Source: the human T2T-CHM13v2.0 reference genome, Homo sapiens. From it: 64,000 nucleotides of DNA. Position 1 is the stretch's first letter. Every line of letters begins with the position of its first letter. This document shows, piece by piece, positions 28,976 to 64,000 of the stretch. Under the pieces are notes generated by a model, which worked only from the letters and a program-made list of their open reading frames with translations, did not search any database and had not been told where the DNA came from. The DNA lies in the NCBI GenBank assembly GCA_009914755.4, contig CP086569.2:10912001-10976000 (forward strand). Direction: 5' to 3'. The translations under genes were made by a program, and so were the position numbers.

Positions 28976-29026
28976 CCACTCCACTCCATTCCATTCCATT
29001 CCACTCCATTCCATTCCATTCCTTCC

Positions 29027-29087: not shown

Positions 29088-30353
29088 TTTCATTTCGCCA
29101 TTCCATTCCCTTCCATTCCATTCCATTCCATTCCATTCCACTCAACTGCACTGCACTCCACTACATTCTATTCCATTCCATTCCATTCCATTCCATTCCA
29201 CTGCATCCCATTCCATTCCACTCTATTCCAAACCACTCCACTCCACTCCATTTCATTCCACACCACTCCACTCCACTTCATTGCATTCCATTCCAACCAA
29301 TTCCATTCCACTCCGTTACATTCCACTTCAGTCCACTCGATTCAATTCCATTCCATAGCATTTCTCTCCATTCCTTTCCATTCTTTCTTTCAACAAGATC
29401 TTACTCTGTCACAGGCTGGAGTGCAGTGGCCCAATCTTAGCTCACATTTCATTTCACCATTCCATTCCATTCGATTCCACTCAATTCCACTACACTCTAC
29501 TCAAGTCCACTCCACTCCATTCCATTCCATTCCACTGCCCTCCACTCCACTCCTCTCTTCTCCATTCCATCCAATTCCATTCCCCTCCTTTCCAACACAC
29601 TTCACTCCACTTCTCTCCATTCTGTGCCTTTCCATTCCATCACATTCCACTCCACTCCACTCCACTCCACTCCACTCCACTCCACTCCACTCCACTCCAC
29701 TCCATTCCATTCCATTCAATTCCAATACACACCATTACATTACTTTCATTTCTTTCGACAGGATCTCACTCTATCAACCAGGCTGGAATACAGTGGCACA
29801 ATCTCAGCTCACATTTCATTTAACCATTGCATTCCATTCCATTCCCTTTTGTTCCGTTCCATTCCGTTCCAATCAACTGCACTGCACTCCATTCCACTCC
29901 ACTCCAGTCCACTCCGCTCGACTTCACTCTGTTCCATTCCATTCCATTCCACTCCATTCCACACAACTGCACTCCACTCAAATCCTCTTCACTCTGTTCC
30001 ATTTCATCCCATTCCATTCCACTCCATTTGATTCCATTCCATTCCATTCCATTCCTTTCCATTCTGTTCCATTCCATTCCACTCCATTTCATTCCACTCC
30101 ATTCCATTCCATTCCACTCTATTCCATTCCATTCTGTTCCACTGCATTCAACTCCACTCCATTCCACTCCACTCAATTCGCTTCCTCCCCTCTACTCCAA
30201 TCCATTCATATAAACTGCATTCCATGCCATTCCCCTCGATTCCACTCCATTGCAATCCACTTCATTACACTCCCTCCATTCCACTCCACTGCACTCCATT
30301 TTATTCCACTATACTTCATTCCATTCAATTCTACTACAAATCATTCCATTCCT

Positions 30354-30415
30354 TTATTTCGACTGGATCTCACTTTATCGCTTGGACTGGAATGCAGAGG
30401 GACATTCTTAGTCGA
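30354..30415 (-). mobile_element. Alu 3'-end relic (antisense), subtype-2 flank TTTATTTCGACTGG
   Basis: ttatttcgactggatctcactttatcgcttggactggaatgcagagggacattcttagtcgac. Confidence 0.7.
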
Positions 30416-30901
30416 CATTTCATTTCCCTATTCCATTCCATTCCATTCCATTCCATTCCATTCTGTTGCATTCCATTCCATTCCACTCCATTCCACACAA
30501 CCCCACTCCACTCAAATCCTCTTCACTCTATTCCATTTTATCCCATTCCATTCCACTCCATTCGATTCCATTCCATTCCGTTTCATTCCTTTCCATTCTG
30601 TTCCATTCCATTCCACTCCATTTCATTCCACTCCATTCCATTCCATTCCATTCCACTCTATTCCATTCCATTCCATTCCACTCTGTTCCACTGCATTCCA
30701 CTCCACTCCATTCCACTCCACTAAATTCGCTTCCTCCCCTCTATTCCAATCCATTCATTTACACTGCATTCCATGCCATTCCCGTCCATTCCACTCCATT
30801 CCAATCCACTTCATTACACTCCTTCCATTCCACTCCACTGCACTCCATTTTATTCCACTATACTCCATTCCATTCAATTCTACTACAAATCATTCCATTC
30901 C

Positions 30902-30965
30902 TTTATTTCGACTGGATCTCACTTTATCACTTGGACTGGAATGCAGAGGCACATTCTTAGCCGAC
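30902..30965 (-). mobile_element. Alu 3'-end relic (antisense), subtype-2; tandem duplicate of the 30354 copy (550 bp apart)
   Basis: ttatttcgactggatctcactttatcacttggactggaatgcagaggcacattcttagccgac. Confidence 0.7.
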
Positions 30966-33194
30966 ATTTCATTTCACTAGTCCATTCCATTCCATTCCAT
31001 TCCATTCCATTCCATTCCATTCCATTCCGTTGCATTCCATTCCATTCCAATGCATTCCATTCCATTCCCTTCCATCAATTCCGTTCCCTTCCATTCCATT
31101 CCACTGCACTCTGATCATCTCCACTCAACTCCATTCCACTCCACTCCACTCCACTTTGTTCTGTTCAGATCCATTCCATTCCATTTCATTCCATTCCAGG
31201 CCATTCCTCTCCATTCAACTCCACTCCATTGCATTCCATTCCACGCCACTCCACTCCCTTCCCCTCCACTCCATTCCACTCCATTCCATTCCAATTCACT
31301 CCTCTTCATTTTATTCCAATGCACTCGACTCCATTCCACTCCAGTCCACTCCACTCCATTCCATTCCATTCCATTCCGTTCCATACCACTGAACTCCAAT
31401 CCACTCCACTCAAATCCACTCCACTCCACTCCTCTCCACTCCATTGTATTCCGTTCCGTTTCGTTCCATTCTTTTCCATTTCACTCCACTTCATTGCACT
31501 CCATTCCATTCCATTCCACTCCATTTCATTAAATTCCTTTCAAATCGATTCCACTCCATTCCACTGAATTCCATTCCTCTCTATTCCACTTCATTCCATT
31601 CCACTCGATTCCATTCCACTCCATTCCACCCTACACCACTCCATTCCACCTCAGTCCATTCCACTCAAGTGCACTAAACTCCCCTCCACTCCACTCCATT
31701 CCATTCAATTCTATTCCATTCTATTCCACTGCACTATGATCCACTCTAATCTACTCCTCTCCACACTACTCTACACCTTTCCATTCCTTTCCTTTCTGTT
31801 CCGATCCTTTCCATTCCATTCCACTCCATTCTATTACACGCCACTCCATTCCACTTCATTCCATTTCACTCCATTCCACTTCAATCCATTCCAATCCACT
31901 CCACTACCATCCACTCCACTCCACTCCATTCTATTACACTCCATTCATTTCCATTCCACTCAATTCCATTCCATTCCGTTCCACTCCATTCCACTCCACT
32001 CCATTCCACTCCACTGCATTCCACTGTATTCCACTCCACTCCCCTCCACTCAATTCCTTTGAATTAAACTCCATTCCATTGCATTCCATTACACTTCATT
32101 CAACTTCATTCCACGCCACTCCATGCCACTACACTCCTTTCCAATCCTCTCCATTCCGTTGAACTCCACTCCATTCCAGTGCACTCCATTCCATTCCATT
32201 CCATTCCATTCAACTCCATTCCATTCCATTCCATTCCATTCCATTCCATTCCATTCCATTCCATTCCATTATTTTGCCTGGATCTCACTCTGTCACCCAG
32301 AATGGAGTACAGTGGCACAATCATAGCTCACGTTTCTTTTCACCGTTCGATTCCAATTTTTGCATTCCAATCCATTCCATTCCATACCATTGCATTGCAT
32401 TCCACTCCATTCCACTCCATTCCATTCCAATGCTCTCGGATCCCCTCAACTCAAACCCACCCCACTGCACTCCACTCCACGACGTTTGATCCATTCAATT
32501 CCATTCTGTTCCATTCCCTTCCATTGCATTCCACTCCATTCTATTGCAATCCAATCCATTCCATTCCACTCTATTCCACTCCACTCCACTCCATTGCACT
32601 CAACTCCACTTCACACCACTCCAGTCCACTCCATTGCATTCCTTTCCTTTCCATTCCTCTCCACTCTACTCCAATCCACTCCACCATATTCCATTCAATT
32701 CCATTCCACTGCACTCCGATCATTTCGTCTCAACTCCACTCCACTCGACTCCATTCCGTTCCATTCCATTCCATTCTGTTCTCTTCCATTCTATTCCACT
32801 CAATTCCATTCCACCCCCCTCCATTCCACTGCACTCCATTTCTGTCCATTCCTATCCACTTCAATCCACTCCACTTGTCTCAATTCCATTCCAATCCCTT
32901 CCATTCCATTCCGTTACATTCCATTCCATTCTTTCCACGCCATTCCACTCCGTTCCACTCCACTCCATTCCACTCCATTGCACTCCACTCCATTCCACTC
33001 ATCTCCATTCCACTCCAATCCACTTCATTCCACTCCATTCCATTCCACTCCATTCCATTCCATTCCATTCCACTCCATTCTACTCCATTCCACTCCTTTC
33101 CACTCCATTCCACTCCTTTCCACTCCATTGTACTCCATTCCATTCCACTCCACTCCATTCCATTCCATTCCACTCCTTTCCGTTTCATTCCGTT

Positions 33195-33255
33195 ATTTTG
33201 ATTGGATATCTTTCTGTCACCCAGACTGGAGTGCAGTGGCACAGTCGTAGCTCAC
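33195..33255 (-). mobile_element. Alu 3'-end relic (antisense), subtype-2
   Basis: ttattttgattggatatctttctgtcacccagactggagtgcagtggcacagtcgtagctcac. Confidence 0.75.
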
Positions 33256-36200
33256 ATTTCTTTTCACCATTCGATTCCATTCCTATGCATTCGAATCCAT
33301 TCTATTCCATTCCATTCCGTTCCTTTCCATTAAATTATTTTCCATTCCTTTCCATTCCATTCCACGCCACTCCATTCCATTCCACTCCACTCCACTCCAT
33401 TTCCTTCCATTCCATTCCACGCCATTCTACTCCACTCCATTCCATTCGTTTCCTTTCCTTTGCATTGCATTCCACTGCACTCTGATGCACTCCACTAAAC
33501 TCCAGTCCACTCTCCTCCACTCCACTTCGCTCCATTCTATGCCATTCTGTTCCGTTTCGTTCAGTTGCATTCCATTCCAGTCCACTCAATTCCACTCCAC
33601 TCCATTTCACTCCATTGCATTCCATTCCACTGCATTCCATGCCTTTCCATTCTGCTCCATTCTACTCCATTCCACTGCACTCCATTCCACTGCACTCCAT
33701 GCCACTCCACTCCACTCCATTCCACTTCATTCCATAGCACTCCACTCCATTCCATTCCATTCTACTACATTCCATTCCATTCCTTTATTTTGATGGGATC
33801 TCACTCTGACAACGAGAACGGAATGCAGTGGCCCAATCTTAGCTCACATTTCATTAACCATTCCACTCCTCTTCACTCCATTCCATTCTACTCCATTCCA
33901 TTTCATTCCTTTATTTGGACGGAATCTCACTCTCTCACACAGACTGCAGTGTCGTGTCCCAATCTTAGCTCACATTTCATTAACCATAGCATTTCTTTCC
34001 ATTCCATTCCATTCCATTCCATTCCATTCCATTCCATTCCATTCCATTCCATTTCATTCCATTCCACTGCACTCCGATCCACTCTTCTGAACTCCACTAT
34101 ACTCCACTCTGCTCTAGATATTTCCATTCCGTTCCATTCCGTTGCGTTGCAGTCCATTCCACTCTACTTCATTACATTCCACTTCATTACACTCCATTCC
34201 TCTCCACTTCACTCCATTCCCCTCCTTTCCACTACATTCCGTTACATTCCATTCCATTCCACTCTATTACACTCCACTCTACTCCACTATTCTATACTCC
34301 ATCCCATTCCATCCCATTCAATTCCAATCCACTCCACTCCAGTATACTCAACTGCGTTCCCTCCCATCCCATTCCACGCCATTCGACTGAAATGCACAGC
34401 ACTCCACTCCACACAACTCCACTCAATTCCATTCCATTTCATTCCATTCCATTCTATTCCACTCCACTCCATTCCATTCCACTCCACTCCATTCCATTCC
34501 ATTCCTTTCCATTCCATTCCATTACTTTCTGTCCAGAAAATCTCACTCTCACACTGGCTGTAGTGCAGTGTTGCACTTTCAGCTCACATTTCATTTCAGC
34601 ATTTCTTTCCACTCCTTTCCACTCCACTCCACTCCACTCCATTCCATCCCATTGCATTCCACTCCATTCCACTCCACTTCACTGCAGTCCACTCCACTCC
34701 ATTCCATTCCACTCCCTACCATTCCATTCCCCTCCAATGCACTCCACTCCAGTCAACTCATCTCCACTTCATTACAATCCATTCCACTCTATTACATTCC
34801 ATTCCTTTTTTTCAAAAGTATCTCACTCTGTCCCTCAGGCTGGAGTGCAGTGGCACAATTTCAACTCACATTTCATTTCACTATTCCATTGCATTTCCTT
34901 TCATTGCCTTCCATTTAATTGCAATCCACTCCACGCCATTCCATTCCATTCCACTCCACTCCATTTCATTCCATTCCACTCCATTCCACTAAACTCTACT
35001 CCACTTCATTCCATTCCATGCCGTCCCATTTCACTCCATTCCACTCCTCTCCACTCTGCTCCACTAAACTCCACTGTACTCCTCTCCAATCCATTCCTTT
35101 CCATTTCCTTCCATTCCATTTTATTACATTCCATCTGTTCCTTTCAACAGCATCTCACACTCAACCAGGCTGGAGTGTAATGACACAATCTCTGCTCACA
35201 TTTCATTTTACCATTGCATTCCATTCCATTCCTTTCCATTCCATTCCATTCTACTCTACTGCACTCCACTTCACTCCACTCCAGTCCATTCCATTCCATT
35301 TCACTCCATTCCACTCCATTTAATTCCATTACATTACATTCCACTCCATTCCATTCCTTTCTTTCGAGAGGATCTCACTCTGTCACAAAGACTGCACTGC
35401 AGTGACCAATATCAGCTCGTATTTCGTTTCACCATTCCACTCCATTCCATTCCATTCCATTCCATTCCATTCCATTCCATTCCATTCCATTCCATTCCAC
35501 TCCAATCCACTCCAATCTACTCCATTCCATTCCATCCAATTCCATGCCACTCCACTCCATTCCACTCCACTCCACTCCACTCCAGTCCACTCCATTCCAC
35601 TCCATCCCATTCCATTCCAATCCATTCCACTCCAGTCAACTCCACTCTGCTCCATTCTATCCCATTCCATTCCATTCCATTCCACTCACTTCCATTCCAT
35701 TCCACACCTTCCATTTGATTCCTTTCTTTTGAAAGGATCTCTTTCTCTCACCCAGGCTGGAGTGTAGTGGCACAATCTGAGCTCAGATTACATTTCACCA
35801 TGCTATTCCATTGCATTCCATTGCACTCCATTCCATGGTATTCCGTTCCATTGCATTCCGTTGCATTCCATTACATTCCATACCATTCCATTGTATTCCA
35901 TTGCATTTCATTCCATTCCATTTCATTCCATTCCTTTCCACTCTTTTCCATTCCATTCCATTCCATTCAACTCCACTCCATTACACTCCTCTCCACTCCA
36001 CTCCAATCCATTCCATTCCACTCCCTTACATTCCATTCCTTTCTTTCGACAGAATCTCACTCCCTCACCCATGCTGGAGTGCAGTGGCACAATCTCATCT
36101 CACATTTCATTTCACAGTTCTATTCCATTACATTCCGTTGCATTCCATTAATTGTATTGCATTCCATTCCATTTCATTCAATTCCATTCCACTACATTCC

Positions 36201-38464
36201 ATTCAACTCCAATACATTCCACTCCATTCCATTCCATTCCATTCCATTCCATTCCTTCCTATTCCTTTCCACTCTTGTCCACTCCGCTGCACTCCACTTG
36301 ACTCCGCTGCACTCCACTACTCTCCACTCCATTCCAATCCCCTCCATCCCATTGTATTCCACTTCATTCCCCTCCACTCCACTCTACTCCACTTCTGTCC
36401 ACTTGACTTCACTCCACTCCATTCCATTACACTCCATTGAATTCCATTCCTTTCTTTCACCAGGATCTCATTCTCTCACCCTGCTTGCAGTGCAGTGGAA
36501 CAATCTCAGATCGCATTTCATTTCACCTTTCCATTCTATTCCATTCCATTCCACTTCATTCCATTCCATTCCACTCTGCTCCATTCCACTCCACTCCACT
36601 GCACTCCGTTCATTTCCATTCCAATCCGCTCCACTCCATTCCATTCCGTTCCTTTCTTTCGACAGGATCTCACTCTCTCACACAGGTTAAAGTGCAGTGG
36701 CAAAACTTAAGTTCATATTTCATTTCACCATTCCATTCCATTCCACTCCACTCCACTCAATTCCCTTCCATTCCACTCCATTCCACTTCACTCCAGTCCA
36801 CTCCATTCAGTTACATTCCATTTCATCCCACTCCTATCCATTCCATTCCTTTCTTTCGACAGGATCTCATTCTGTCACCCAGCCTATAGAGCAGTGGCAC
36901 AATATCAGCTCACATTTAATTTCATCATTCCCTTACATTGCATTCCATTCAATTCCATACTATTCCATACCATTCCATTCCAATCTGCTGCATTTCATTC
37001 CATTCCATTCCACTTCACTCTACTCCACTACTCTACACTCCATCCCATTCCATCCCATTCAATTCCACTCCACTCCACTCTATTGCATTCCCTCTCATCC
37101 CATTCCAAGCCATTCCACTCAAATCCACACTACTCCACTCCACTCTACTCCACTCCATTCCATTCCATTCCATTCCATTGCATTCCATTCCATTCCATTC
37201 CATTACTTTCTGTCGAGAAAATCTCACTCTGTCACACTGGCTGTAGTGCAGTGTTGCACTTTCAGCTCACATTTCATTTCACCTTTCCTTTCTATTCCAT
37301 TCCACTCCACTCCACTCCACTCCACTCCATTCTATGCCATTGCATTCCACTGCATTCCACTCCACTTCACTGCACTCCACTCTACTCCATTCCATTTCAC
37401 TCCCTACCATTCCATTCCCCTCCACTCCACTCCACTCCAGTCAACTCCTCTCCACTCCCTTCCATTCCATTCCATTCCATTCCATTCCATTCCATTCCAT
37501 TCCATTCCACTCAACTGCACTGAATTCCACTCCACTCCACTCCCTTCCATTCCATTCCATTCCATTCCATTCATTCCATTCCACAACATTCCAGTCCATT
37601 CCATTCCATTCCACTCCATTCCATTCCATTCCATTCCACTCCATCCCATTCCATTCAACTCTTTTCCACACGACTCCACTCCACTCCAATCCATTCCACA
37701 ACACTCCACTCCAATCCACTCCATTCCATTCCTTTCCATTTGATCCCATTCCATCCCACTCTGTTCCACTCCACTCTACTCCATTCCATTCCATTCCATT
37801 CCATTCCATTCCATTCCATTCCATTCCATTCCATTCCACTCCATTCCATTCAATTCTTTCCTTGGACAGGATCTCACTCTGTCACACAGGCTGGATTGCA
37901 GTTGCACAATCTCAGCTTACATTTCATTTCACCATTACATTCCTTTCCACTTTATTCCACTCCACTCCACTCACGTTCACTTCACTCATTTCCATTCCTT
38001 TCCACTGCACTCCACTCCACTCTTCTACCCTGCATTCCATGCCCTTCCATTCCACTCCACTCCACTCCATTCCATTCCATTCCATTCCATTCCAATACAC
38101 TCCAGTACATCACACACTTTTCATTCGACAATATCTCACTTTGTCCCCCGGGCTGGAATGGAGTGGCACAATCACAGCTCACCTTACATTTAACCATTCC
38201 ATTCCATTCCATTACATTTCAGTGCATAACATTGTATTCCATTAGGTAACATTCCGTTCAGTTCTCTTCCACGCCACTCCATTCCACTCCACTCCACTCC
38301 AGTCCACTCCAATCAACTTCATTCCATTCCATTCCATCCCATTTCACTCCATTCAAAACCACTCCACTCCACTCCATTCCACTCCATTCCTTTCCTTTCC
38401 AGTCCATTCCATTCCATTCCATTCCATTCCATTCCATTAAACTCCTTTCTATTCCATTGCCTAC

Positions 38465-38524
38465 TTTCGACAGAGTCTCACTCTTTGACACAGGCTTGAT
38501 TTCAGTAGCAGAATCTTACCTCAC
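38465..38524 (-). mobile_element. Alu 3'-end relic (antisense), diverged unit-start variant
   Basis: tttcgacagagtctcactctttgacacaggcttgatttcagtagcagaatcttacctcac; closest to the 2610 copy. Confidence 0.7.
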
Positions 38525-41500
38525 ATTTCATTTCACCATACCATTCCACTGCATTCCCCTCCACTTCACTCCAGTCCACTCCACTCCACACCATTCCACG
38601 CCATTCCACTCCATATCATTCCACTCCATTTCATTCCATTCCTTTGTTTCAACAGGATCTCACTCTGTCACCCGGGCTGGAGTGCAGAGTCCCAATCTCA
38701 ACTCACTTTTCATTAAACTGTTCCATTCCATTCTATTGCTTTCCATTCTATTCCAGTTCATTCCATTCCTTTTCATTGAATTCCATTCCATTTCATTCTA
38801 TTAAATTCCATTCCACTCCACTCCACTCCGTTGCATTCCATTCCACTCAACTACACTCCACTCCACTCCAATCCACTCCATTCCATTCCATCCCCTTCCA
38901 CTCCACTCCACTCCATTCCTCCCAATCCCATTCCATTCCACTCTCTTCCAGTCCACTCCACTCCACTCCACTCCACTACAATCCATTCCATTCCATTACA
39001 CTCCATTCCTCTCTTTGCCATTCCACTCTGTTCTTTCGACAGGATCTCACTTTATCACCAAGGCTGGAGTAACGTGGCATAATCTCAGCTCGCATTTCAT
39101 TTCAACATTCCATTGCATTCCATTACAATGCATTCCACTCCATTCCATTTCATTCCATTCCATTCCACTCCACTCCACTCCACTCTGCCTCATTCCATTC
39201 CATTCCATTTCACTCCATTCCACGCCAATCTACTCCACTCCCCTCCACTCCATTGTATTCCATTCCACTCCCTTCCATGCCATTCCTTTCTTTCAACAGG
39301 ATCTCACTCTGTCACCCAGGATGGAGTGCAGTGGCAAAACCTCAGCTCACATTTCGTTTCACCATTCCTTTCCATTCCATTTAATTCCATTCCATTACCC
39401 TCCACTCCATTCCAGTCCACTCCACTCTGCCCAATTACACTCCAGTCCACTCCACTCCAATCTAGTACAATCCACTCTATTCCACTCAATCCCTTTCCAT
39501 TCCATGGAATTCCAATCCACTCCACTCCACTCCTCTCCATTGCATTCCATCATATTCTATTCCACTCCATTGCAGTCCACTCCACTCCACTCCTCTCCAT
39601 TCCATTCCATTCCATTCCATTCCATTCCTTTCCATTCCATTTTGCTCCATTCTCTTACATTACATTCCATTTATTCCCAATACATTGCACTGCACTCCTC
39701 TCCACTCCACTCCATGTCATTCCATTCCATTACATTCCAGTCCATTCCACTCCATTCCACTACACTCCAATCCAATTTGTTCCATTACATCCCGTTTCAT
39801 TTCACTCCATTCCACTCCTCTCCACTCTACTCCATTCCACTCCTCTCCACGCTATTCCACTCGATTCCATTTCATTCTTTTCCATTCCATTCAATTCCAT
39901 TCCACTCCAATCCACTGCACTCCAATCCATTCCATTCCACTCCATCCCATTTAATTCCACTCCATTCCACTCCAGTCCACTCCATTCCGTGCCATTCTAT
40001 CCAATTCCGTTCTATTTTGTTCCATTCCATTCAATTCTAGTCCATTACTTTGAATTCTTTTCTTTTGAAATGATTTCACTCATTCACACAGGCTGGAGTG
40101 CAGTGGGAATATATGAGCTCACACTTCATTTCACCATTCCATTGCACTCCATTCCACTCCACTCCACTCCACCCCACTCCACTCCATTAAATCCCAATCC
40201 ATTCCATTCCACTCCATCCCATTTGATTCCACACCACTACACTCCACTACACTACACTCCCTGCCATTCCATCCCATTTCTCTCCATTCCATTCCATTCC
40301 ATTAGATTCCATTCCACTCCATTGCATTCCATTCCTTTATTTCGACAGTATCTCACTCTGTCACACAGGCAGGAGTGCAGTGGCACAATATCAGCTCACA
40401 TTTCATTTCACCGTTTCATTTCACTCCATTCCACTCCATTCCACCACACCACAGCACCCTCCACTCCACTCCACTCCATTAAATCCCAATCCATTCCATT
40501 CCACTCCATTCCATTCCATTCTTTGTTTTCTTTCGACAGGATCTCACTCTGTCACGCAGGGTGGAGTGCAGTGGCACAATCTCAGCTGACATTTCATTTC
40601 AATATTCCATCTCATTCCATTCCATTTCACTCTACTCCACTCCACTCCACTCTATTTCATTCCGTTACATTCCACTCCACTCCTTTCCATAAGTTTCCTT
40701 TCTTTTGACAGGATCTCACTCTATCAAACAGGCTGGAGTGTAGTGGCACAATTTCACCTCAAATTTCACTTCACCCTTCCGTTCCGTTGCATTCCATTCC
40801 ATTCTATTCCATTCCATTCAATTCCTTTCCATTCCATTCCATTATACTCCATTCCACTCATCTCCACTCCATTGCTTTCCATTCCACTCCACTTCACTCC
40901 ACTCCTTTCAACTCCACTACATTACATCCCATTCTGTCCTACTCCATTCCACTCCACTCCACTCCAATCTACTCAATTCCATTTCCTTACATCACATTCC
41001 ATTCCATTCAATTCCATTCCACTCCACTCCAATCCACTCAACTGAACTTTCTATTCCATTCCATTCAATTCCATTCTATTCCACTCCACTCAATCCAATT
41101 CACTCCATTCCATTCCATTCCATTTCATTCCACTCCACTCCACACCACTCCACTCCACTCCATTCCATGCCATTCCATCCAATTCCATTCTATTCCGTTC
41201 AATTCCAATCCATTCCTGTCCATTCCATTCATTTCGTTTCTTTTTAAATGATCTCCCTCAGTCACACAGGCTGGAGTTCGGTGGGAAAATCTGAGCTTCA
41301 TTTCATTTCACCATTCCATTGCACTCCATTCTACTCCATTCCACTCCACCCCACTCCACTCCATTCCATTCCATTCCATCCCAATCCATTACATTCCACT
41401 CCATTTCATTCCTTTCTTTTCTTTCATAAGGATATCAGTTTTTCACGCAGGGTGAAGTGGAGTGGCACAATCTCAGTTCACATTTTATTTCAACTTTCCA

Positions 41501-53095: not shown

Positions 53096-54147
53096 ATTTC
53101 TTTTCACCATTCGATTCCATTCCTATGCATTCGAATCCATTCTATTCCATTCCATTCCGTTCCTTTCCATTAAATTATTTTCCATTCCTTTCCATTCCAT
53201 TCCACGCCACTCCATTCCATTCCACTCCACTCCACTCCACTCCATTTCCTTCCATTCCATTCCACGCCATTCTACTCCACTCCATTCCATTCGTTTCCTT
53301 TCCTTTGCATTGCATTCCACTGCACTCTGATGCACTCCACTAAACTCCAGTCCACTCTCCTCCACTCCACTTCGCTCCATTCTATGCCATTCTGTTCCGT
53401 TTCATTCAGTTGCATTCCATTCCAGTCCACTCAATTCCACTCCACTCCATTTCACTCCATTCCATTCCATTCCACTGCATTCCATGCCTTTCCATTCTGC
53501 TCCATTCTACTCCATTCCACTGCACTCCATTCCACTGCACTCCATGCCACTCCACTCCACTCCATTCAACTTCATTCCATGGCACTCCACTCCATTCCAT
53601 TCCATTCTACTACATTCCATTCCATTCCTTTATTTCTATGGGATCTCACTCTGACAACGAGAACGGAATGCAGTGGCCCAATCTTAGCTCACATTTCATT
53701 AACCATTCCACTCCACTCCATTCCATTCCATTCTACTCCATTCCATTTCATTCCTTTATTTGGACGGAATCTCACTCTCTCACACAGACTGGAGTGTCGT
53801 GTCCCAATCTTAGCTCACATTTCATTAACCATAGCATTTCTTTCCATTCCATTCCATTTCATTCCATTCCACTGCACTCCGATCCACTCTTCTGAACTCC
53901 ACTACACTCCACTCTGCTCTAGAGATTTCCATTCCGTTCCATTCCGTTCCGTTGCAGTTCACTCCACTCTACTTCATTACATTCCACTTCATTACACTCC
54001 ATTCCTCTCCACTTCACTCCATTCCCCTCCTTTCCACTCCATTCCGTTCCATTCCATTCCATTCCTTTCCATTCCATTACACTCCATTCCATTCCATTCC
54101 AATGCACTCCATTCCATTCCATTCTACTCCGTTCCAATCCATCCCTT

Positions 54148-54195
54148 TACTTCGACGTGATATAAAGTGGCCAAATCGTAACTAACATTTCATTA
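54148..54195 (-). mobile_element. Degenerate or truncated Alu relic at the end of block C
   Basis: ttcgacgtgatataaagtggccaaatcgtaactaacatttcat. Confidence 0.5.
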
Positions 54196-54265
54196 ATCAT
54201 TCCATTCCATTCCATTGCATTCATTCAATTGCATTCCATTCCATTCCGTTCCATTCCTTTCCATG

Positions 54266-54330
54266 CCATTCCATTCCATTCCATTCCATTCCATTCCATT
54301 CCATTCCATTCCATTCCATTCCATTCCATT
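54266..54330. repeat. Perfect (CCATT)13 tract
   Basis: ccattccatt uninterrupted. Confidence 0.9.
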
Positions 54331-56443
54331 GCATTCTCTTCCATTCCTCTGCACTCCAGTCAACTCCATTCAACTCCAATTCTCTCCTCTCCCCTTTGTT
54401 CTTTTCCGTTCCATTTTATTCCGGTCCCTTCCATTCCTTTATTTCTACTGGATCTCACACTGTCACCCAGAATGGAGTGCTGTGGCACAATCTAGCTCAC
54501 ATTTCATTTCACCATTCCATTCCATTCCATTCCATTCCATTCCATTCCATTCCACTCCATTCCATTCCTGTCCATTCCACTCCATCACATTCCACTCCAC
54601 TCCACTCCACTCCAGTCTATTCCATTCCATTCCATTACACTGCAGTCTGATCAACTCCACTCAAATCCTCTCCATGGCAAGCCACTCCACTCCGTTCCAT
54701 TCCATTCCCTTCCAATCCACTCCTTCCATTCCGCTCAACTCCATTCCATTCCATTCCTTTATTTAGAATGGAACTCACTTTGTCACTCAGAATGGATTGC
54801 AGTGTTCTTATCTTAGCTCACATTTCAATCACCATTCGATACAATTCCATTCCATTGCATAACATACCATTGAATTCCATTCCATTTCACTGCATTATGA
54901 GACAATCCACTTAACTCCACTCCACTCCATTCCACTCTGTTCCATTCCATTCCATTCCGCTCCATTTCTTTCCGTTCTTTTCCATTCCATTCCATTCCAC
55001 TTCGCTCCATTCCACTCCACTCCACTCCACTGCATTCAATTCCATTTAATTCAACTGCCCTGCGATCCACTCTACTCAATTTCACTCCATTCGACTCCAA
55101 TCCTCCCAAATCCACTCCATTCCCCTTCACTTCACTAAAATCTAGTTCATTCTACTCCACTCCACTCCATTCCATTCCATTCCATTCTATTCCACTACCC
55201 TCCATTCCTCTCCACTGCACTCCACTCCACTCAGTTCAATTCCATTCCACTCCATTCTATTCCTCTCCACTCCACTGCACTCCACTCCATTCAGTTCAAT
55301 TCCATTCCACTCCACTCCATTCTATTTCATTCCACTCCATTCCATTCCACTCCACTCCACTGCACTCCTCTCCACTCAATTCAGTTTCAGTCCACTCCAC
55401 TCCATTCCATTTCATTCCACTCAACTCCATTCCATTCCACTCCATTCCACTCCTCTCCACTGCACTCCGCTCCACTCAATTCAATTTCATTCCACTCCAG
55501 TCCACTCCATTCCATTCCACTGCACTCCGATCCACTCCACTCTACTCAAGTCCACTGTACTCCACTCTACTCTGTTCTGCTCCATTCTCTATCATTCCTT
55601 TCCATTGCATTCCATTCCACTCCACTCCACCCCACTCATCTCCGTTCCAATCCATTCCGTTCCATTCTACTCCATTCCATTCCGCACCATTCTACTGAAT
55701 TCCATTCCTCTCTATTCCACTCCATTCCACTCCCATCCATTCTACTCCACTCCATTCCACTCCACTCCACTCAATTGCATTCCATTCCTTTCCATTCTAT
55801 TCCACTGTTCTCTGATTTTCTCCACTCAGTTTCACTCCACGCCACTCCACTCCGTTCTGCTCCATGCCTTTCTATTCTGTTCCATTCCCTTCCATTCCAT
55901 TTCAGTGCATTCCATTCCACTTCACTCCGTTCCATTCCAGTCAATTACACTCCACTCCACTACGTTACATTCCAATACACGCCATTCCATTCCATTCCAC
56001 TGCACTGTGATCCACTCCACTCAACTCCACTGAACTCCACTCCGTTCCATTCCATTCCTTTCAATTCCAATCTGTTTTATATGTTGAATTCCACTGCATT
56101 CCATTCCTTTCCACCTCATTCCACTCTACTCAACACGATTCCACTCCTCTTCCCTCCAATCCATTCCATTCCAATCCAATCCATTCCATTCCACTCCTTT
56201 CCATTCCAATCCATTCCACTCCATTCCAATCTAGTCGATTCCGCTTCACTCCATTCCACCCCAATGCACTCGATTCCATTCCATTCCAATCCATTCCATT
56301 CCATTCCATTCCATTCCACTCTATTCCACTCCACTCCACTCCATTACCCTCCACCCCTTTCCAGTCCACTCCAATGCATTACAATCCATTCCGTTCCACT
56401 CCACTCCATTCCATTCGATTCTACTGCATTCCATTCAATTGCT

Positions 56444-56505
56444 TTATTTCGAATCTATCTCACTCTGTCAAAAATCCTGGAGTGCAGTGGCACAATCTTA
56501 GCTCA
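56444..56505 (-). mobile_element. Alu 3'-end relic (antisense), subtype-2
   Basis: ttatttcgaatctatctcactctgtcaaaaatcctggagtgcagtggcacaatcttagctcag. Confidence 0.75.
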
Positions 56506-57040
56506 GATTTCATTTCCCCATTCCATTCCATGCCATTCCATTCAATTCCATTGCAGTCCATTCCATTCCATTTCATTCATTTCCATTCCATTCAATTCCA
56601 TTCCATTGCATTCCACAGAACTCCACTCCACTCCACCCCACAACACTCCATTAAACTCCATTTCACACCACTCCATTCCATTTCATTCCATTCCATTCCA
56701 TTCTATTCCACTACATTCCATTCCATTCTACACCAATCAACTCCACTGCATTACTCTCCACTCCATTCCTCTCCACTCTACTCCTTTTCATGCCATTCCA
56801 TTCCATTCCACTCCATTCCATGACATTCCATTCCACTCCACTAGGTTCCACTCGACTCCATTCAACTCAATTACACTCCATTCCTCTGTATTCCATTCCA
56901 CTACACTCCATTCCATTCCATTCTACTCCATTCCATTTCATTCCTTTATTTCGACTGAATCTCACTGTGTCACGCAAACTGGAGTGCTGTGGCCCAATCT
57001 TAGCTCACATTTCATTGATGATTATAAAACATTTCATTTC

Positions 57041-57100
57041 ATTCCATTCCATTCCATTCCATTCCATTCCATTCCATTCCATTCCATTCCATTCCATTCC
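57041..57100. repeat. Perfect (ATTCC)12 tract
   Basis: attccattcc uninterrupted. Confidence 0.9.
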
Positions 57101-58293
57101 ACTGCACTCTGATCCACTCTACTTGAATCCACTCCACTCCACTCTATTCCTTTCCATTCCAATCCGTTCAATTCCGTTCCATTCCACTCCACCCAGCTCT
57201 GTTCCATTCCACTTAATTCCACTCCACTCCTCTCCACTTCACTTAATTCCCATCCATTCCACTCCATTCCATTCTAATCTATTCCATTCCATTCCATTCC
57301 ATTCCATTCCATTCCATTCCATTCCGCTCCATTCCATTCCATTCCATTCCTTTCTTTTCCACTCCACTCCATTCCACTCCACTCCTCTCCACTCCACTAT
57401 CCTCCATTTCATTCCATTCCACTCCACTCCACTCCACTCCATTCCATTCCTTTCCATTCCATTCCACTGAACTCCCATCCACTCCGCTCAACTCCACTCC
57501 CCTCCACGCCACTCCAATTATTTCCTTTCCATTCCTTTCACTCCACTCTATTACATTCCATTCTATTGCTTTCCATTCTATTCCTTTATTGCGACAGTAT
57601 CTCACTCTGTCACTCAGAATGAAGTATAGTGGCCCTATCTCACCTCACATTTCATTCACAATTCAATTCCATTCCATACAATTCCATTGCATTGCATTCC
57701 ATTCCATTCCATTCTTTGCCATTTCACTCCACTCCACTCCATTGCACTCCACTCAATTCCATTCCATTCGACTCCACTCCACTATATTCCATTCCATTCC
57801 ATTCCATTCCATTTCCTTACAATCCATTCCATTAGACTGCACTCAGATCCAACCCATTCCACTTCACTCCGATCCTTTCTGTTTCACATTATTCCTTTCC
57901 ATTCTATTCCATTCCATTCCACTCCATTTCACTCCACTCCAGTCCAATCCACTCCATTCCATTCCATTCCATTTCATTCCACTGCATTCTGATCCACTCC
58001 ACTGAACTCCACTTCACTCTACTCCACTCCACTCCATTTCATTCTGTTCCATTCGAATCCATTCCTTTCCATTCCATTTCATTCCATTCCGCTCCACTCC
58101 ATTCCACTCCACTGAATTCCAATCCATTCTCTTCCTTTCCACTCCATTCCATTTCCTTCCATTCCGCTCCATTCCACTCCATTCCTCTCCAGTCCATTCC
58201 ACTCCTCTCCACTCCACCTAACTGCACTCCATTCCAATCTTTTCCATTCCACACCACTCCATTCCATTCGATTTTACTCCATTCCATTCCATT

Positions 58294-58356
58294 CTTTATT
58301 TCGGCTGGAACTCACTCTCTCACCCAGACTGGAGTCTAGTCCCACATTGTTATCTC
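58294..58356 (-). mobile_element. Alu 3'-end relic (antisense), subtype-2
   Basis: ttatttcggctggaactcactctctcacccagactggagtctagtcccacattgttatctcac. Confidence 0.7.
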
Positions 58357-61071
58357 ACATTTCATTTCACCTTTCCATTGTATTGCATTGCATTCCATTC
58401 CATTCCATTGATTCCATTCCATTCAACTCAACTCCACTCCAAAGCACTCAACTCCACTCCACTTCACTCCACTCCACTCCATTCTGGTGCGTTCCGTTCC
58501 ATTACGTTCCATTCCATTCAATTCCGTTCCATTGTATTCCATTCCACTCCATTCCATTCTATTCCATTCCATGCCATTCCATTCAATTGCACTCCGATCC
58601 ACTCCACTCAACTCCATTCCTCTCCATTCCACTCCATTCTGTTCTATTCCATTCCATTCCATTGCTTTCCATTCCATTCCATTCCATTCCACTTTATCCC
58701 ATTCCACTCCATTCCACTGCACTCCACTCCAATCCACTCCACTCCACACCATTCCATTCTATTCCACTCCACCCCATTCCACTCCACTCAACTCAACTCC
58801 ACTCCATTCCACTCCACTCCGTTCCATTGTATTCCGTTCCGTTCCATTCTCTTCCATTCCACTCCATTCCATCTCTCCACTCAATTCCACTCCACTCCAA
58901 TTCACTCTGTGCAATTAAATTTCACTCCAGTCCACTTCCCTGGACCACGCTCCATTCCACACCACTCCATTATGTTCCATTCCTTTCCATTCCATTCCAT
59001 TCCATTCCACTCCATTGCATTCCACTCCACTCCATGACACTCCACTGCATTTCACCCAATCCCTCCATTCCACTCCACTCATCTCCATTCCATTCAACTT
59101 CACTCCTTTCCATTTTGTTCCATTCCATTGTGTTCCATTCCATTCCACTCCATTTCATTCCACTCTACTCCATGTCACTCCACTCCATTTCACCCATTCC
59201 CTCCATTGCACTCCACTCATTTCCATTCCATTCCACTTCACTCCTTTCCATTCTTTTCCATTCCATTCTATTCCATTCCACTCCCCCCCATTCCACTCCA
59301 CGCCACTCCATTCCAATCCATTCCATTCCACTCCACAACTTTCCATTGTATTTTAATTTATTCCATTCCATTCCTTTATTTCGACTGGAATTCACAATCT
59401 CACCCAGACTGGAGTGTAGTGGAACATTCATAGCTCACATTTCATTTCACCCTTTCATTCTATTCCATTCCATTCCATTCCATTCCATTCCATTCCATTC
59501 CATTCCATTCCACTCCATTCCATTCCATTCCATTCCACTCCATTCCATTCTATTGCTCTCACGTCCACTCCACTCTACTCAAGTCCACTTCACTTCACTC
59601 CACTCACCTCCATTCCAGTGAGCTCCATGCCTTTCCGTCCCATTCTATTCCATTCCATTCTATTCCAAACCATATAATTGCATTCCATTCTGTTGCATTC
59701 CATTCCATTCCATTCCATTCACTCCTTTCCATTCCACGCCATTCCACTCTATTCCACTCTGCTCCAATTTACTCCACTCCATTTCATTCCACTCCATTCC
59801 ACTCCAATCCACTCCATTCCATTCCATTCCATTCCATCCCATTCCATTCCATTCCAGTGCACTCCGATCCACTTCACTCAAATCCATTCCACTCCACTCC
59901 ACTCTGTTTCATTCTGTTCCATTCCATTCCTTTCCATTCCGTACCATTAAACTCCATTCCATTTCACTCCACTCCATTTGAACCCATTCTCTTCCATTCC
60001 ACTCCAATCAGTTTCATTCAATTCCACTCCATTCCTCTACAGTCTATTCTACTCCACTCCATTCCACCCTAATACACTCCATTCCAATCTCTTCACTTCC
60101 ACTCCACTCCATTCCATTCGATTTTTCTCCATTCCATTTAATTCTTTATTTCGACTGGAACTCACTTTCTTATCCAGACTGGAGTACAGTGGCACATTGT
60201 TAGCTCACATTACACTTCACCTTTCCATTCCATTCCTTTCCATTCCATTCCATTCAATTCCATTGTGTTCCATTCCATTCCATTCCATTGCATTCCACTC
60301 AACTCCACTCCGCTGCACTCAGCTCCACTCCACTCCACTCCACTCCATTCTGGTTCCTTCCATTCCGTTCCTTTCCTTTCCATTCCATTCGGTTCCATTG
60401 CATTCCATTCTACTCTATTCAATTCCATGCCGTTCCATTCCACTGCACTCCGATCCACTCTGCTCAACTCAACTCCACTCAATTCCACTCCATTCCAATC
60501 CATTCCATTTCATTCCATTGCATTCCATTCCTTTCCATTCCACTCTACTCTATTCCATTCCACTCCATTACACTCCATCCCACTTCACTCCACTCCAATC
60601 AACTCCATCCCACTCCATTCTATTCCTTTCTATTCCACTGTACTCCAATCCACTCGACTCAATGCAAATTCGCTCCATTCCACTCTACTCCTTTCCATTT
60701 CATTCCGTTCCATTCTGTTCTCTTCCATTCAATTCCATTCCATTCATCTCCACTCAATTCCTCTCCACTCCAACTCACTACATGCCATTAAATTCCACTC
60801 CACTCCACTTCCCTCAACTCCACTCCATTCCACTCCACTACTTTAGGTTCCATTCCTTTCCTTTCCATTCCATTTGATTCCACTCCATTGCATTCTACCT
60901 GACTCCATTCCACTCCACTCCATTTCAATACATTCCACTCCACTCATCTCCATTCCCTTCCACTCCACTCCTTCCCATTCCACTCCATTCCATTCCATTC
61001 CATTCCACTGCACTCCATTCCATTCCACTCCATTCCATTCCATTCTATTTTACTCCATTCCATTCCATTCC

Positions 61072-61133
61072 TTTATTTCGATTGGAACTCACTGTCTCAC
61101 CCAGACTGGAGTGCAGTGGTACATTCTTAGTTC
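61072..61133 (-). mobile_element. Alu 3'-end relic (antisense), subtype-2
   Basis: ttatttcgattggaactcactgtctcacccagactggagtgcagtggtacattcttagttcac. Confidence 0.75.
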
Positions 61134-62608
61134 ACATTTCATTTCACCCTTCCATTCCATTCCATTCCATTCCATTCCACGCCACTCCACTCCACTCCTC
61201 TCCATTCCATTCCATTCCATTCCATTCCATTCCATTCCATTCCATTCCATTCCATTCTATTCAATTTCGTTCCATTCCGTTCCGTTCCATTCCGTTCCAT
61301 TCCATTACATTCCATTCCATTGCACTCAACTCCACTTCACTCCACTCAACTCAACTCCAATTCACTCCACTCCATTCCATTCTGGTGTGCTCCATTCCAT
61401 TCCGTTCCACTCCATTCTATTCCGTTCTATTCTATTCAAATCTGTTCAATTGCATTCCATTCTTTTACATCACATTCCATTCCAATCCACTCCATTCCAT
61501 TCCACTCCCTTCCAATCCAATCCACTCCACTCGATTCCACTCCACTCCATTTCACTGCACTCCACTCCAATCCAATCCATTCCATTCCACTCCATTCCAT
61601 TCCACTGCACTCCAATCCACTCCACTCAACTCCACTCCACTCCACTCATCTCTGTTTCATTCCGTTCCATTCCATTCCATTCCATTCCATTCCATTCCAT
61701 TCCATTACTGTCCATTCCATTCCACTCCACTCCCTTCCACTCCACTATTTCTGATGCCATTCACCTCCATTCCCCTCCACTCCAGTCCACTCCACTCAAA
61801 TCAACTCCATTCCATTCCATTCCACTACATTCCATTCCATTCCACTACATTCCACTTTATTCCAATCCACTCCATACCACTCCACTCCATTCATCTCCAC
61901 TCCACTCCATTCCTCTCCACTCCACTCCATTACACTCCATTCCATTCCACTGCACACTATTCCATTCCATTCTACTCCACTCCATTCCATTCCTTTATTT
62001 CAACAGATCTCACTCTGTCACTTTTAATGAAGTGCAGTAGCACAATCTTAGCTCACATTTCATTTCACCATTCTATTCCATTTAATTCCATTGAACTCCA
62101 TTCCATTCCATTCCACTCTAATACACTCAGCTAAACTCCACTGCATTCCATTCCATTCCATTGTGTTCCATTCCACTGGACTCTGATCCACTCCACTCAA
62201 CTCCAGTACACTCCACCCCACTTCACTCTATTCCATTTTGTCTTTTCCGATAGTTTCCGTTCCTTTCCTCTCAGTTCCATTCCAGTCCACTGCATTCCAC
62301 TCCACTCCACTGCACTCCATTCCACTCCAATCCACTCCATTCCATTCTACTCCATTGCATTCAACTCCATTCCATTCCATTCCACTCCATTCCACTCCTC
62401 TCCATCTCCCTCATCTCCATTCCACTGCACTCTGCTCCACTCCATTCCATTCCATTCCATTCCACTCCATTCCATTCCAGTCCACTCCACTCCACTCTCC
62501 TCAACTACATTCCACTCCACTCCATTCCCATCCACTACATTCCACTGCATTCCATTCCATTCCACTCCACTCCATTCCATTCCTTTCTACTTGATTCCAT
62601 TCCATTAC

Positions 62609-62673
62609 TTTATTTCGACTGGATCTCACTCTGTCACCCAAACTGGAGTGCTGTGGTACAATCTCAGCTAACA
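62609..62673 (-). mobile_element. Alu 3'-end relic (antisense), subtype-2; last copy in the window
   Basis: tatttcgactggatctcactctgtcacccaaactggagtgctgtggtacaatctcagctaac. Confidence 0.75.
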
Positions 62674-64000
62674 TTTCCTTTCACATTTCCATTCTATTTC
62701 ATTCCATTCAATTGCATTACATTCCATTCAATTGCATTCCATTCCATTCGACTCCACTGCATTCCCCTCCACTCTACTCCACTCCTCTGAATTCCATTCC
62801 ACTCCACTCCATTCCACTCCATTCCATTCCATTCTACTACATTCCATTCCATTACATTCCACTGCATTCCACTCCGTTCCACTCCACTCCTCTCCACTGT
62901 ACTCCACTCCATTCCATTCCACTCCACTCCATTCCATTCCACTCTATTCCATTCAAATCCATTCCACTCCACTCCACTCCATTCCATTCCACCCCACTCC
63001 TACTTGACTCCACTCTATTCCATTCTCTACCATTCCATTCCACAACACTCCATTCCATTCCACACCACTCCACTAATCTCCACTCCACTCCACTGCATTC
63101 CATTCCATTCCACTCCACTCCACTCCAATCCATTCCATTCCATTCCTGTGCACTCTAATAAAATCCACTGAACTCCATTTCACTCCAGTCCATATCACTT
63201 TGTTCCATTCCATTCCATTCCATTCCATTCCATTCCATTCCATTCCATTCCATTCCACTGCACTCCATTCCATTCCATTCCACTCCACCCGACTCGACTC
63301 CACTCAAATCCACTCCAATCCAATCCACTCCACTCTACTCCATTCCATTCCATTCCACTGCATTCCATTGCACACCATTCCATTTCACACGACTCCAGTC
63401 CATTCCACTTCAATCCATTCCTTTCCATTCCACCTCACTCCACTCCATTCCTATCCATTCCATTCCATTCCTTTCCATTCCATTCCATTCCATTGCACTC
63501 CACTCCATTCCATTCCACTCTATTCCATTCAAATCCTCTCCACTCCACTCTGTTCCATTCCACCCCACTCCTACTTGACTCCACTCTATTCCATTCTCTA
63601 CCATTCCATTCCATAACACTCCATTCCATTCCACTCCAATCCACTAACCTCCACTCCACTCCACTCCACTCCACTGCATTCCATTCCATTCCACTCCACT
63701 CCACTCCATTCCATTCCATTCCATTCCTGTGCACTGTGATAAAATCCACTCAACTCCATTTCACTCCAGTCCATATCACTCTCTTCCCTTCCATTCCATT
63801 ACATTCCTATCCATTCCATTTCATTCCATTCCTTTCCCCTGCACTCCATTCTATTCCATTCCACTCTACCCCACTCGACTCCACTCAAATCAACTCCAAT
63901 GCAATCCACCCCACTCTACTCCATTCCCTTCCACTCCACTGCATTCCGTTGCACACCATTCCATTTCACACGACTCCACTCCTTTCCACTTCAATCCATT

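What the first reader, a model, noticed from the sequence alone, without database searches (positions are those of the whole stretch)
29850..64000. Two interleaved satellite subtypes; subtype boundaries are themselves duplicated inside block C
Seen, subtype 1 (about 1-29.8 kb and 34.3-50 kb): Alu relics every 150-500 bp with flank TTTCTTTTGACAGGATCTCAC, and long clean pentamer runs.

Seen, subtype 2 (about 29.85-34.3 kb and 50.1-64 kb): relics every 0.55-1.6 kb with a distinct flank CTTTATTTCGACTGGATCTCAC / TTATTTTGATTGGATATC, a retained CpG in the flank, and more degenerate pentamers (many CCACT, CGATT and GCATT variants).

The 1/2 transition at about 29.8 kb is copied at about 50.0 kb, so the duplication that made block C post-dates the juxtaposition of the two subtypes. 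The final 10 kb (54.1-64.0 kb) is subtype 2 with no paralog in the window, which suggests the window is running into a different sub-array.

Inference: this is a junction zone between two related HSat3 sub-families rather than the homogeneous core of an array.
Basis: partly seen in the sequence, partly recalled or inferred. Interest (0 to 1): 0.5.

Follow-up and report, generated by a model that had tools for sequence, protein, structure and literature searches.

The report
Duplicated boundary in Alu-studded pentamer satellite
This is an ordinary stretch of human-type satellite 3 DNA, carrying short Alu leftovers, in which two variants of the repeat unit meet at one boundary that a later ~13 kb duplication copied; it is real but not surprising.

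Summary
The core observation holds. The whole window is a (CCATT/CCACT)n pentamer satellite with 166 same-strand relics of the last ~65 bp of an Alu. The relics fall into two classes defined by four linked positions: 139 'CAGC' relics and 22 'ATAT' relics. The ATAT relics lie only at 30.3-33.9 kb and 50.6-62.6 kb. They are spaced about twice as far apart (median 604-711 bp against 320-342 bp).

The same two haplotypes and the same spacing difference recur in 617 relics on 120 unrelated metagenome contigs. The classes are therefore family-wide lineages, not a local quirk.

The 1-2-1-2 pattern comes from one event. A direct duplication (about 21.4-34.26 kb and 42.3-54.06 kb) runs straight through the 1/2 boundary. 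Substitution divergence is equal on both sides (3.06% and 2.72%). The duplication ends inside a CATTC run at 34,256/54,061. The stretch 54.06-64 kb is class 2 with no close paralog.

Three sub-claims fail. The flank CpG does not discriminate. CCACT is not enriched in subtype 2. CGATT is rare in both.

Assignment to a named HSat3 subfamily could not be tested properly. Alu fragments within HSat3, HSat3 subfamilies and growth by unequal exchange are all published. Interest is low.

The parts
1..29835 (+). Subtype-1 satellite: (CCATT/CCACT)n with 95 CAGC-type Alu relics at 3.18 per kb. It contains multi-kb internal duplications and a five-relic unit of about 1.3 kb.
21400..34256 (+). Block C, copy 1. 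This is a direct paralog of 42,300-54,061. The left edge is fuzzy (about 21.4-21.9 kb). The right edge is sharp, at about 34,256.
   Evidence: k-mer diagonals, tile BLAST, global alignment
29737..30439 (+). The 1|2 boundary, copy 1. The last CAGC relic is at 29,737-29,835 and the first ATAT relic at 30,342-30,439.
29836..34256 (+). Subtype-2 island: 6 ATAT-type relics at 1.36 per kb. It includes a local ~549 bp tandem copy (29,970-30,451 and 30,535-31,044) that is present once in copy 2.
34250..34262 (+). Right-hand breakpoint of block C (a new 2|1 joint), inside a CATTCCATTCCA pentamer run. Homology with 54,055-54,066 ends here.
   Evidence: Alignment
34257..50068 (+). Subtype-1 satellite: 48 CAGC-type relics at 3.03 per kb. 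The stretch 34.26-37.4 kb has no close paralog. The stretch 37.5-42.3 kb is paralogous to 1.6-4.0 and 7.7-9.7 kb.
42300..54061 (+). Block C, copy 2.
49970..50662 (+). The 1|2 boundary, copy 2. The last CAGC relic is at 49,970-50,068 and the first ATAT relic at 50,565-50,662.
50069..54061 (+). Subtype-2 stretch paralogous to 29,836-34,256 (5 relics).
54062..64000 (+). Subtype-2 continuation: 12 relic hits at 1.21 per kb. No paralog in the window exceeds 82% identity, except a local tandem copy (63,001-63,500 and 63,572-64,000, 91%).

Best explanation
The window is a non-coding, HSat3-type pentamer satellite. Its repeating unit is composite: a relic of about 65 bp from the 3' end of one Alu (Alu positions about 224-289 plus the start of the tail, antisense to the C-rich strand), followed by a variable stretch of CCATT/CCACT pentamers.

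Inferred history: one Alu fragment was captured in the array and then amplified together with the pentamers. Two lineages of the composite unit diverged. The CAGC type has short units of about 350 bp. The ATAT type carries four linked substitutions and has long units of about 600-700 bp. It is derived, because CAGC keeps the Alu state at two of the four sites.

In this locus a CAGC block abuts an ATAT block at a single boundary. Shown: a later direct duplication of at least 13 kb copied that boundary, which gives the order 1-2-1-2. Inferred: the duplication arose by unequal exchange between misaligned pentamer runs. It may be part of a larger copy of about 16-20 kb covering 37.5-54.06 kb. Further multi-kb duplications of similar age (0.6-4% divergence) built the rest of subtype 1. 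Nothing suggests a function beyond being satellite DNA.
For: - Single origin of the relics. All 166 are on one strand with the same Alu end-points. All five Alu CpGs read CpA in both consensus sequences.
- Two lineages. Four linked columns separate them, and spacing differs. A 7-mer classifier of inter-relic DNA, trained on 0-21 kb and 54-64 kb, gives a weak but consistent shift in the held-out stretches.
- Independent replication in 120 contigs and 617 relics. Haplotypes are CAGC 321 and ATAT 96. The two consensus sequences differ at exactly the same four columns. Spacing is 356 against 712 bp. Same-type neighbours are in excess: 42 mixed pairs against 147 expected.
- One duplication spans the boundary. 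There is a continuous diagonal from 21.4 to 34.25 kb at offsets 20.9 to 19.8 kb. Divergence is 3.06% and 2.72% on the two sides, and the end-point lies in a pentamer run.
- The copies differ by about 3% plus many indels, so this is not a false assembly duplication.
- No sign of constraint on the relics: 2.46% against 3.09% divergence, p = 0.11.
- Literature. HSat3 often includes fragments of ancient transposable elements in its repeat units (bioRxiv 10.1101/2021.07.12.452052). [quoted passage not shown]
Against: - Unsupervised clustering on the whole relic profile does not return the ATAT set as its own cluster. 'Two' lineages is a simplification, because subtype 1 contains several relic variants.
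- A simple tandem-duplication model does not account for 34.26-37.4 kb, which has no counterpart upstream of 14.6 kb.
- Divergence within block C is uneven, from 0.4% to 7% per 500 bp. Later conversion or alignment noise is therefore involved.
- The species and chromosome of the window were not established. No related contig matches the window above 91% over more than 260 bp.
Confidence: 0.85

Rival explanations
1. The window sits at the true edge between two long, internally homogeneous arrays of two named HSat3 subfamilies. From 54 kb onward it enters the core of the second array.
For: Subtype 2 runs uninterrupted for 14 kb to the window's end (50.07-64 kb). All-ATAT contigs exist.
Against: - Subtype 2 at 54-64 kb is not homogeneous. 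Its best internal matches are 74-82%.
- In related contigs, type switches are frequent and single ATAT relics lie within CAGC runs. That points to a patchwork rather than two clean arrays.
- No subfamily-specific top 24-mer occurs in either part of the window.
Confidence: 0.3
2. The subtype-2 island at 29.8-34.3 kb and the stretch at 50.1-64 kb were placed next to subtype 1 independently, by two separate juxtapositions or insertions.
For: None beyond the alternating order.
Against: The flanking subtype-1 DNA and the boundary itself are paralogous base for base, and divergence is equal on both sides of the boundary.
Confidence: 0.02
3. Block C is an assembly artefact: a falsely duplicated or mis-joined satellite segment.
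For: Satellites are prone to mis-assembly. The joint at 34,256 lies in a simple pentamer run.
Against: The copies differ by about 3% substitutions. They also differ by many indels, including a ~549 bp unit and a truncated relic. Falsely duplicated copies would be near-identical.
Confidence: 0.04
4. The ATAT signature is only a local variant spread by gene conversion within this locus, not a lineage of the satellite family.
For: Only 22 relics in the window carry it, and 11 of them are paralog pairs.
Against: In unrelated contigs, 96 of 617 relics carry the full ATAT haplotype. Those contigs share no more than 91% identity with the window over short stretches, and they show the same longer spacing.
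Confidence: 0.03

Closest known systems
Human satellite 3 (HSat3), in particular the acrocentric/Y HSat3A arrays that are intermingled with Alu fragments
   Same: - Derived from a (CATTC)n pentamer array.
- A mixture of GGAAT and GGAGT monomers.
- Alu fragments form part of the repeating unit, as stated for HSat3 in the T2T centromere and T2T-Y papers.
- (ACTCC)n runs nested in HSat3 have been reported, notably on chromosomes 21 and 22 and on the Y (PMC11305138).
- A related contig joins this satellite to alpha satellite (L077).
- The most common HSat3A4-specific 24-mer occurs in 9 of 120 related contigs. No other subfamily's top 24-mer does.
   Different: - None of the 14 top subfamily 24-mers occurs exactly in the window itself.
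- The classical satellite-3 10-mer CAACCCGA(A/G)T is absent.
- The T2T-Y paper reports no phylogenetic clustering of HSat3-associated Alu fragments. Here two lineages defined by four linked sites are clear.
HSat1B / DYZ2 (composite satellite containing an Alu subunit)
   Same: An Alu-derived piece is a fixed part of a tandemly repeated composite unit.
   Different: HSat1B has a ~2.5 kb unit with a long Alu subunit and a region that is over 85% AT. Here the relic is only about 65 bp, the remainder is pentamer satellite, and GC is 0.43-0.47 throughout.
Nested tandem repeats and segmental duplication by unequal exchange in satellite arrays (for example Yq12 DYZ1/DYZ2 blocks, alpha-satellite arrays)
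   Same: Direct multi-kb paralogous blocks of similar age, with a breakpoint inside the simple repeat and a boundary between two repeat types carried along by the duplication. The T2T-Y paper describes duplications spanning several DYZ1/DYZ2 blocks as consistent with unequal exchange.
   Different: The scale here is about 13-20 kb rather than hundreds of kb to Mb. The exact exchange partners cannot be reconstructed, because 34.26-37.4 kb is unexplained.

Membership tests
HSat3 (human satellite 3) | Tandem array derived from the pentamer CATTC/GGAAT | tested here: met
   TRF reports one period-5 array (TTCCA) over 58-63,965 at 64% matches. CCATT occurs at 63-66 per kb and CCACT at 42-47 per kb of inter-relic DNA.
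HSat3 (human satellite 3) | [quoted passage not shown] 2014 (A1-A6, B1-B5) | tested here: inconclusive
   Only the single most common 24-mer per subfamily (Table 1, PMC4022460) could be tested. There are 0 exact matches in the window. The held copy of the full list is truncated: its first part lists only HSat2A1.
HSat3A4 (acrocentric subfamily; clones pTRS-47, pR-1, pR-2, pR-4, pE-2) | Presence of HSat3A4-specific 24-mers | tested here: inconclusive
   The top 24-mer AATTCCATTCCTTCCCATTCCATT is absent from the window at 0 or 1 mismatch. It is exact in 9 of 120 contigs of the same relic-bearing family, and it is the only subfamily 24-mer found there.
HSat2 | HSat2-specific 24-mers and CGATT-containing diverged units | tested here: not met
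   All three HSat2 top 24-mers have 0 hits even at 3 mismatches. CGATT occurs at only 0.6-1.1 per kb.
Classical satellite 3 with the interspersed 10-mer | CAACCCGA(A/G)T interspersed among the pentamers (feature recalled from the older literature, not re-read here) | tested here: not met
   0 occurrences on either strand.
HSat1B / DYZ2 | ~2.5 kb unit with an Alu subunit plus an extremely AT-rich segment | tested here: not met
   GC is 0.43-0.47 in every 2 kb bin. The relic is only Alu positions 224-289.
Alu-derived relic of single origin | All copies share the same Alu coordinates, orientation and junction with the satellite | tested here: met
   166 of 166 relics are on the + strand. BLAST start positions cluster at Alu positions 224 and 240. 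The consensus aligns to Alu 224-289 in reverse orientation. The junction ...GCTCACATTTCATTTCACC is shared by both types.
Direct segmental duplication by unequal exchange | Co-linear direct paralogs, uniform divergence across the block, breakpoint within repeated sequence | tested here: met
   divergence is 3.06% and 2.72% on the two sides of the boundary, and the right breakpoint lies in CATTCCATTCCA. The left edge is fuzzy, and divergence per 500 bp ranges from 0.4% to 7%.

The most novel reading that the evidence does not exclude
The CAGC/short-unit and ATAT/long-unit composite repeats may be two so far unnamed sub-lineages of the Alu-bearing HSat3 (possibly HSat3A4-related). Their blocks would be repeatedly shuffled and co-duplicated across pericentromeric or acrocentric regions. 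The four-site relic haplotype could then serve as a simple marker for tracing exchange between such arrays. This contrasts with the published statement that HSat3-associated Alu fragments show no phylogenetic clustering.
Probability: 0.3. Interest if true: 0.3.

Novelty: already known. Interest (0 to 1): 0.15.

Why it matters
It matters little beyond bookkeeping. The finding shows that this stretch is a typical patchwork satellite, built by unequal exchange from a composite Alu-relic/pentamer unit. It also shows that a boundary between unit types can be carried along by a duplication.

The one mildly useful product is a compact four-site marker (relic profile columns 17, 25, 47 and 70: CAGC against ATAT), with an associated unit length. 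It replicated in independent contigs. It could help sub-classify Alu-bearing HSat3 blocks and follow their duplication history in complete assemblies.

Tried and rejected
- **Full subfamily k-mer classification.** The held copy of Dataset S2 of PMC4022460 is truncated, and its first part lists only HSat2A1. Only the 14 top 24-mers could be used.
- **Scan of 185,579 prokaryote genomes** for the relic/satellite junction, looking for host contamination: 0 hits.
- **Search for the window's own locus among the 120 metagenome contigs.** No match above 91% over more than 260 bp. Species and chromosome remain unassigned.
- **Unsupervised clustering of the full relic profile** (average linkage, PCA, categorical mixtures with K = 2-8). 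None isolates the 22 ATAT relics, because variation within subtype 1 dominates. The split is nevertheless clear at the four linked sites.
- **5-mer PCA of inter-relic DNA.** PC1 is only the CCATT:CCACT ratio and does not separate the subtypes. PC2 separates them partly.
- **Choo et al. 1990 (pTRS-47).** The paper is not held. One literature search was wasted on a badly set term filter.
- **A simple single tandem-duplication model for all of 14.6-54.06 kb.** It was considered but does not explain 34.26-37.4 kb.
- **Selective constraint on the relic.** Tested and not supported.
- **Full-length Alus in the less satellite-rich contigs.** None found. They contain only the same 224-289 relics.
Full report
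**What the window is**

The whole 64 kb is one strand-consistent pentamer satellite. GC is 0.43-0.47 and GC skew is -0.64 to -0.82 in every 2 kb bin. Tandem Repeats Finder reports a single period-5 array (TTCCA) from 58 to 63,965 at 64% matches. The inter-relic DNA is a mixture of CCATT (63-66 per kb) and CCACT (42-47 per kb). The classical satellite-3 10-mer CAACCCGA(A/G)T is absent.

**The relics**

I built a profile from 112 seed copies. It finds 166 copies of a roughly 100-bp element, all on the + strand.

The relic consensus aligns to Alu positions about 224-289 in reverse orientation. The remnant of the A-tail appears as TTTCTTT at the 5' side. All five Alu CpGs read CpA.

Identical end-points, identical orientation and the shared junction ...GCTCACATTTCATTTCACC-pentamers point to one captured Alu fragment that was amplified with the satellite. 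Repeated insertion would not give this pattern.

**Are there two types?**

The two consensus sequences then differ at five columns, and four of these are near-fixed:

| Column | Subtype 1 | Subtype 2 |
|---|---|---|
| 17 | C 81% | A 100% |
| 25 | A 99% | T 73% |
| 47 | G 93% | A 95% |
| 70 | C 83% | T 86% |

- The four-site score is bimodal: 121 relics score 0, 18 score 1, 1 scores 2, 8 score 3 and 13 score 4.
- All 22 relics scoring 2 or more lie at 30,340-33,897 or 50,563-62,596.
- The columns were chosen using the labels, so I ran two controls. Circular shifts of the labels along the relic order give no near-fixed column in any of the 118 shifts that overlap the true labels by 5 or fewer. 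Without labels, the strongest non-adjacent column associations are 17/25, 25/47 and 17/47.
Median spacing is 320 and 342 bp in the two subtype-1 stretches, against 604, 597 and 711 bp in the three subtype-2 stretches. Spacings of at least 540 bp make up 7% against 76%. Mann-Whitney p = 9e-7 with the paralogous copy left out.
- A 7-mer classifier of relic-masked DNA, trained on 0-21 kb against 54.1-64 kb, gives a weak but consistent shift in the held-out stretches: -0.14 to -0.01 against -0.46 to -0.13.

**Limits of the two-type description**

- Whole-profile clustering (average linkage, PCA, mixtures) does not isolate the 22 relics. Subtype 1 is itself heterogeneous, with a recurring five-relic unit of about 1.3 kb.
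- The 'retained CpG' is not diagnostic: 37% against 50%, p = 0.25, and both consensus sequences read TTTCGAC.
- CCACT is not enriched in subtype 2, and (ACTCC)n runs are commoner in subtype 1.
- CGATT is rare in both types.
- GCATT (about 1.5-fold), CTGTT (5- to 9-fold) and CpG (1.3- to 1.8-fold) are higher in subtype 2.

**Independent replication**

A scan of prokaryote genomes for the relic junction found nothing. These are host DNA, and at least some of it is primate and pericentromeric. One contig (L077) joins this satellite to alpha-satellite monomers and the end of an L1 element.

- The contigs hold 647 relic hits, and in all but two contigs every hit lies on a single strand relative to the satellite.
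- Among 617 full-length relics, the four-site haplotypes are CAGC 321 and ATAT 96. Intermediates are few (score 2: 12; score 3: 19).
- The two consensus sequences differ at exactly columns 17, 25, 47 and 70, and nowhere else.
- Adjacent same-type pairs are spaced 356 bp (CAGC, n = 387) against 712 bp (ATAT, n = 47), p = 4e-20. Mixed pairs number 42, against 147 expected under random order.
- All-ATAT contigs also score higher on the inter-relic classifier (p = 4e-6).
- No contig matches the window above 91% over more than 260 bp, so these are other loci.

The two types are therefore lineages of the family, not a local peculiarity. Type switches are also common. Several non-identical contigs contain runs such as 0004444, and single ATAT relics lie inside CAGC runs. 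A 1/2 junction is thus not a rare landmark.

**The duplication**

Shared 24-mers, 500-bp tile BLAST and a global alignment all show a co-linear direct paralogy. It runs from about 21.4 to 34.26 kb and from about 42.3 to 54.06 kb, with the offset drifting from 20.9 to 19.8 kb through indels.

- The paralogy runs straight through the boundary. The segments 29,719-30,010 and 49,951-50,243 align with only scattered mismatches.
- Substitution divergence is 3.06% (220 of 7,193) on the subtype-1 side and 2.72% (101 of 3,715) on the subtype-2 side.
- Homology ends at about 34,256/54,061, inside CATTCCATTCCA. This fits unequal exchange between misaligned pentamer runs.
- Downstream, copy 2 continues as subtype 2 to the window's end. 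No paralog there exceeds 82% identity, apart from a local tandem copy at 63.0-64.0 kb. Copy 1 switches to subtype 1 at the new joint.
- The copies differ by about 3% and many indels, so a false assembly duplication is unlikely.

Other paralogs have similar divergence of 0.6-4%: 2.0-4.0 with 37.9-39.9 kb, 8.0-9.5 with 40.6-42.1 kb, 5.5-7.0 with 15.6-17.1 kb, and 10-12 with 19.2-21.2 kb. Block C may therefore be the right-hand part of a larger copy covering 37.5-54.06 kb. The stretch 34.26-37.4 kb has no counterpart, and the full history is not resolved.

**Direction and constraint**

CAGC keeps the Alu state at columns 47 and 70, so ATAT is the derived lineage. This is an inference. Within block C, relic columns diverge no less than inter-relic columns (2.46% against 3.09%, p = 0.11). 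There is no sign of constraint on the relics.

**Comparison with what is known**

- Altemose et al. 2014 divide HSat2 and HSat3 into 14 subfamilies (PMC4022460).
- The T2T centromere paper states that HSat3 often includes fragments of ancient transposable elements in its repeating units.
[quoted passage not shown] It also describes evolution of such heterochromatin by unequal exchange.
- (ACTCC)n runs nested in HSat3 have been reported (PMC11305138).

None of the 14 top subfamily 24-mers occurs exactly in the window. The HSat3A4 top 24-mer occurs in 9 of the 120 related contigs, and no other subfamily's does. This hints at an HSat3A4-related family but does not classify the window. The full 24-mer list was not available.

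**Verdict**

The alternating pattern comes from one boundary copied once. The object is an ordinary, already described kind of satellite architecture, so interest is low.

Noticed in passing
window 8,900-13,100 and 19,400-22,600: Within subtype 1 there is a higher-order unit of about 1.27-1.33 kb holding five relics of distinct variant classes (pattern 'b a a d a'). For example, relics at 10,246, 11,516 and 12,847 are 1,270 and 1,331 bp apart. The published pTRS-47 (HSat3A4) unit is 1,366 bp, but no sequence comparison was possible.
   Followed up: partly
window 23,000-24,000 with 43,880-44,870; 8,500-9,500 with 41,094-42,094; 6,500-7,000 with 16,597-17,097: Some patches of the paralogous blocks differ by only 0.4-1.0%, while neighbouring 500-bp bins of the same block differ by 2-7%. 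This could reflect later gene conversion or a secondary exchange, or uneven alignment quality.
   Followed up: no
window 27,577-27,632 against 47,836-47,932; also 7,222-7,276 and 17,394-17,447: The relic at 27,577 keeps only profile columns 43-98, while its block-C paralog is full length, which implies a deletion after the duplication. Two paralogous relics (7,222 and 17,394) keep only the 5' half and run directly into pentamers.
   Followed up: no
window 29,970-31,044 against 50,202-50,717: A unit of about 549 bp is present twice in copy 1 of block C and once in copy 2. The two tandem copies are 92-93% alike, and each is about 91-92% like the single copy. It is therefore unclear whether copy 1 gained a unit or copy 2 lost one.
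   Followed up: partly
all relics (profile columns 14-77): Every one of the five CpG sites of the Alu 3' end reads CpA (never TpG) in the consensus of both relic types. The decay therefore happened in the founder copy before amplification. The one-sided direction may be chance.
   Followed up: no
window 34,257-37,400: About 3.1 kb of subtype-1 satellite, immediately after the duplication joint, has no paralog above 82% anywhere in the window. A simple tandem-duplication model does not explain it.
   Followed up: partly
L077 1-6,203; L117 1-7,172: L077 joins the relic-bearing satellite to alpha-satellite monomers and an L1 3' end, with a strand switch at about 500 bp. L117 carries the classical CAACCCGAAT motif next to relic-bearing satellite and then AT-rich non-satellite DNA.
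   Followed up: no
L044, L050, L105, L034, L099, L017 (metagenome contigs): Single ATAT-type relics sit inside long runs of CAGC-type relics. L017 and L050 are the same locus at 97% identity. In some arrays the ATAT unit therefore appears to be one member of a larger repeating unit rather than forming its own block. Short-read assembly chimeras cannot be excluded.
   Followed up: partly
block C (21,900-34,250 against its copy): C/T differences make up 146 of the 323 substitutions between the two copies. Many of these are probably CCATT/CCACT interchanges.
   Followed up: no
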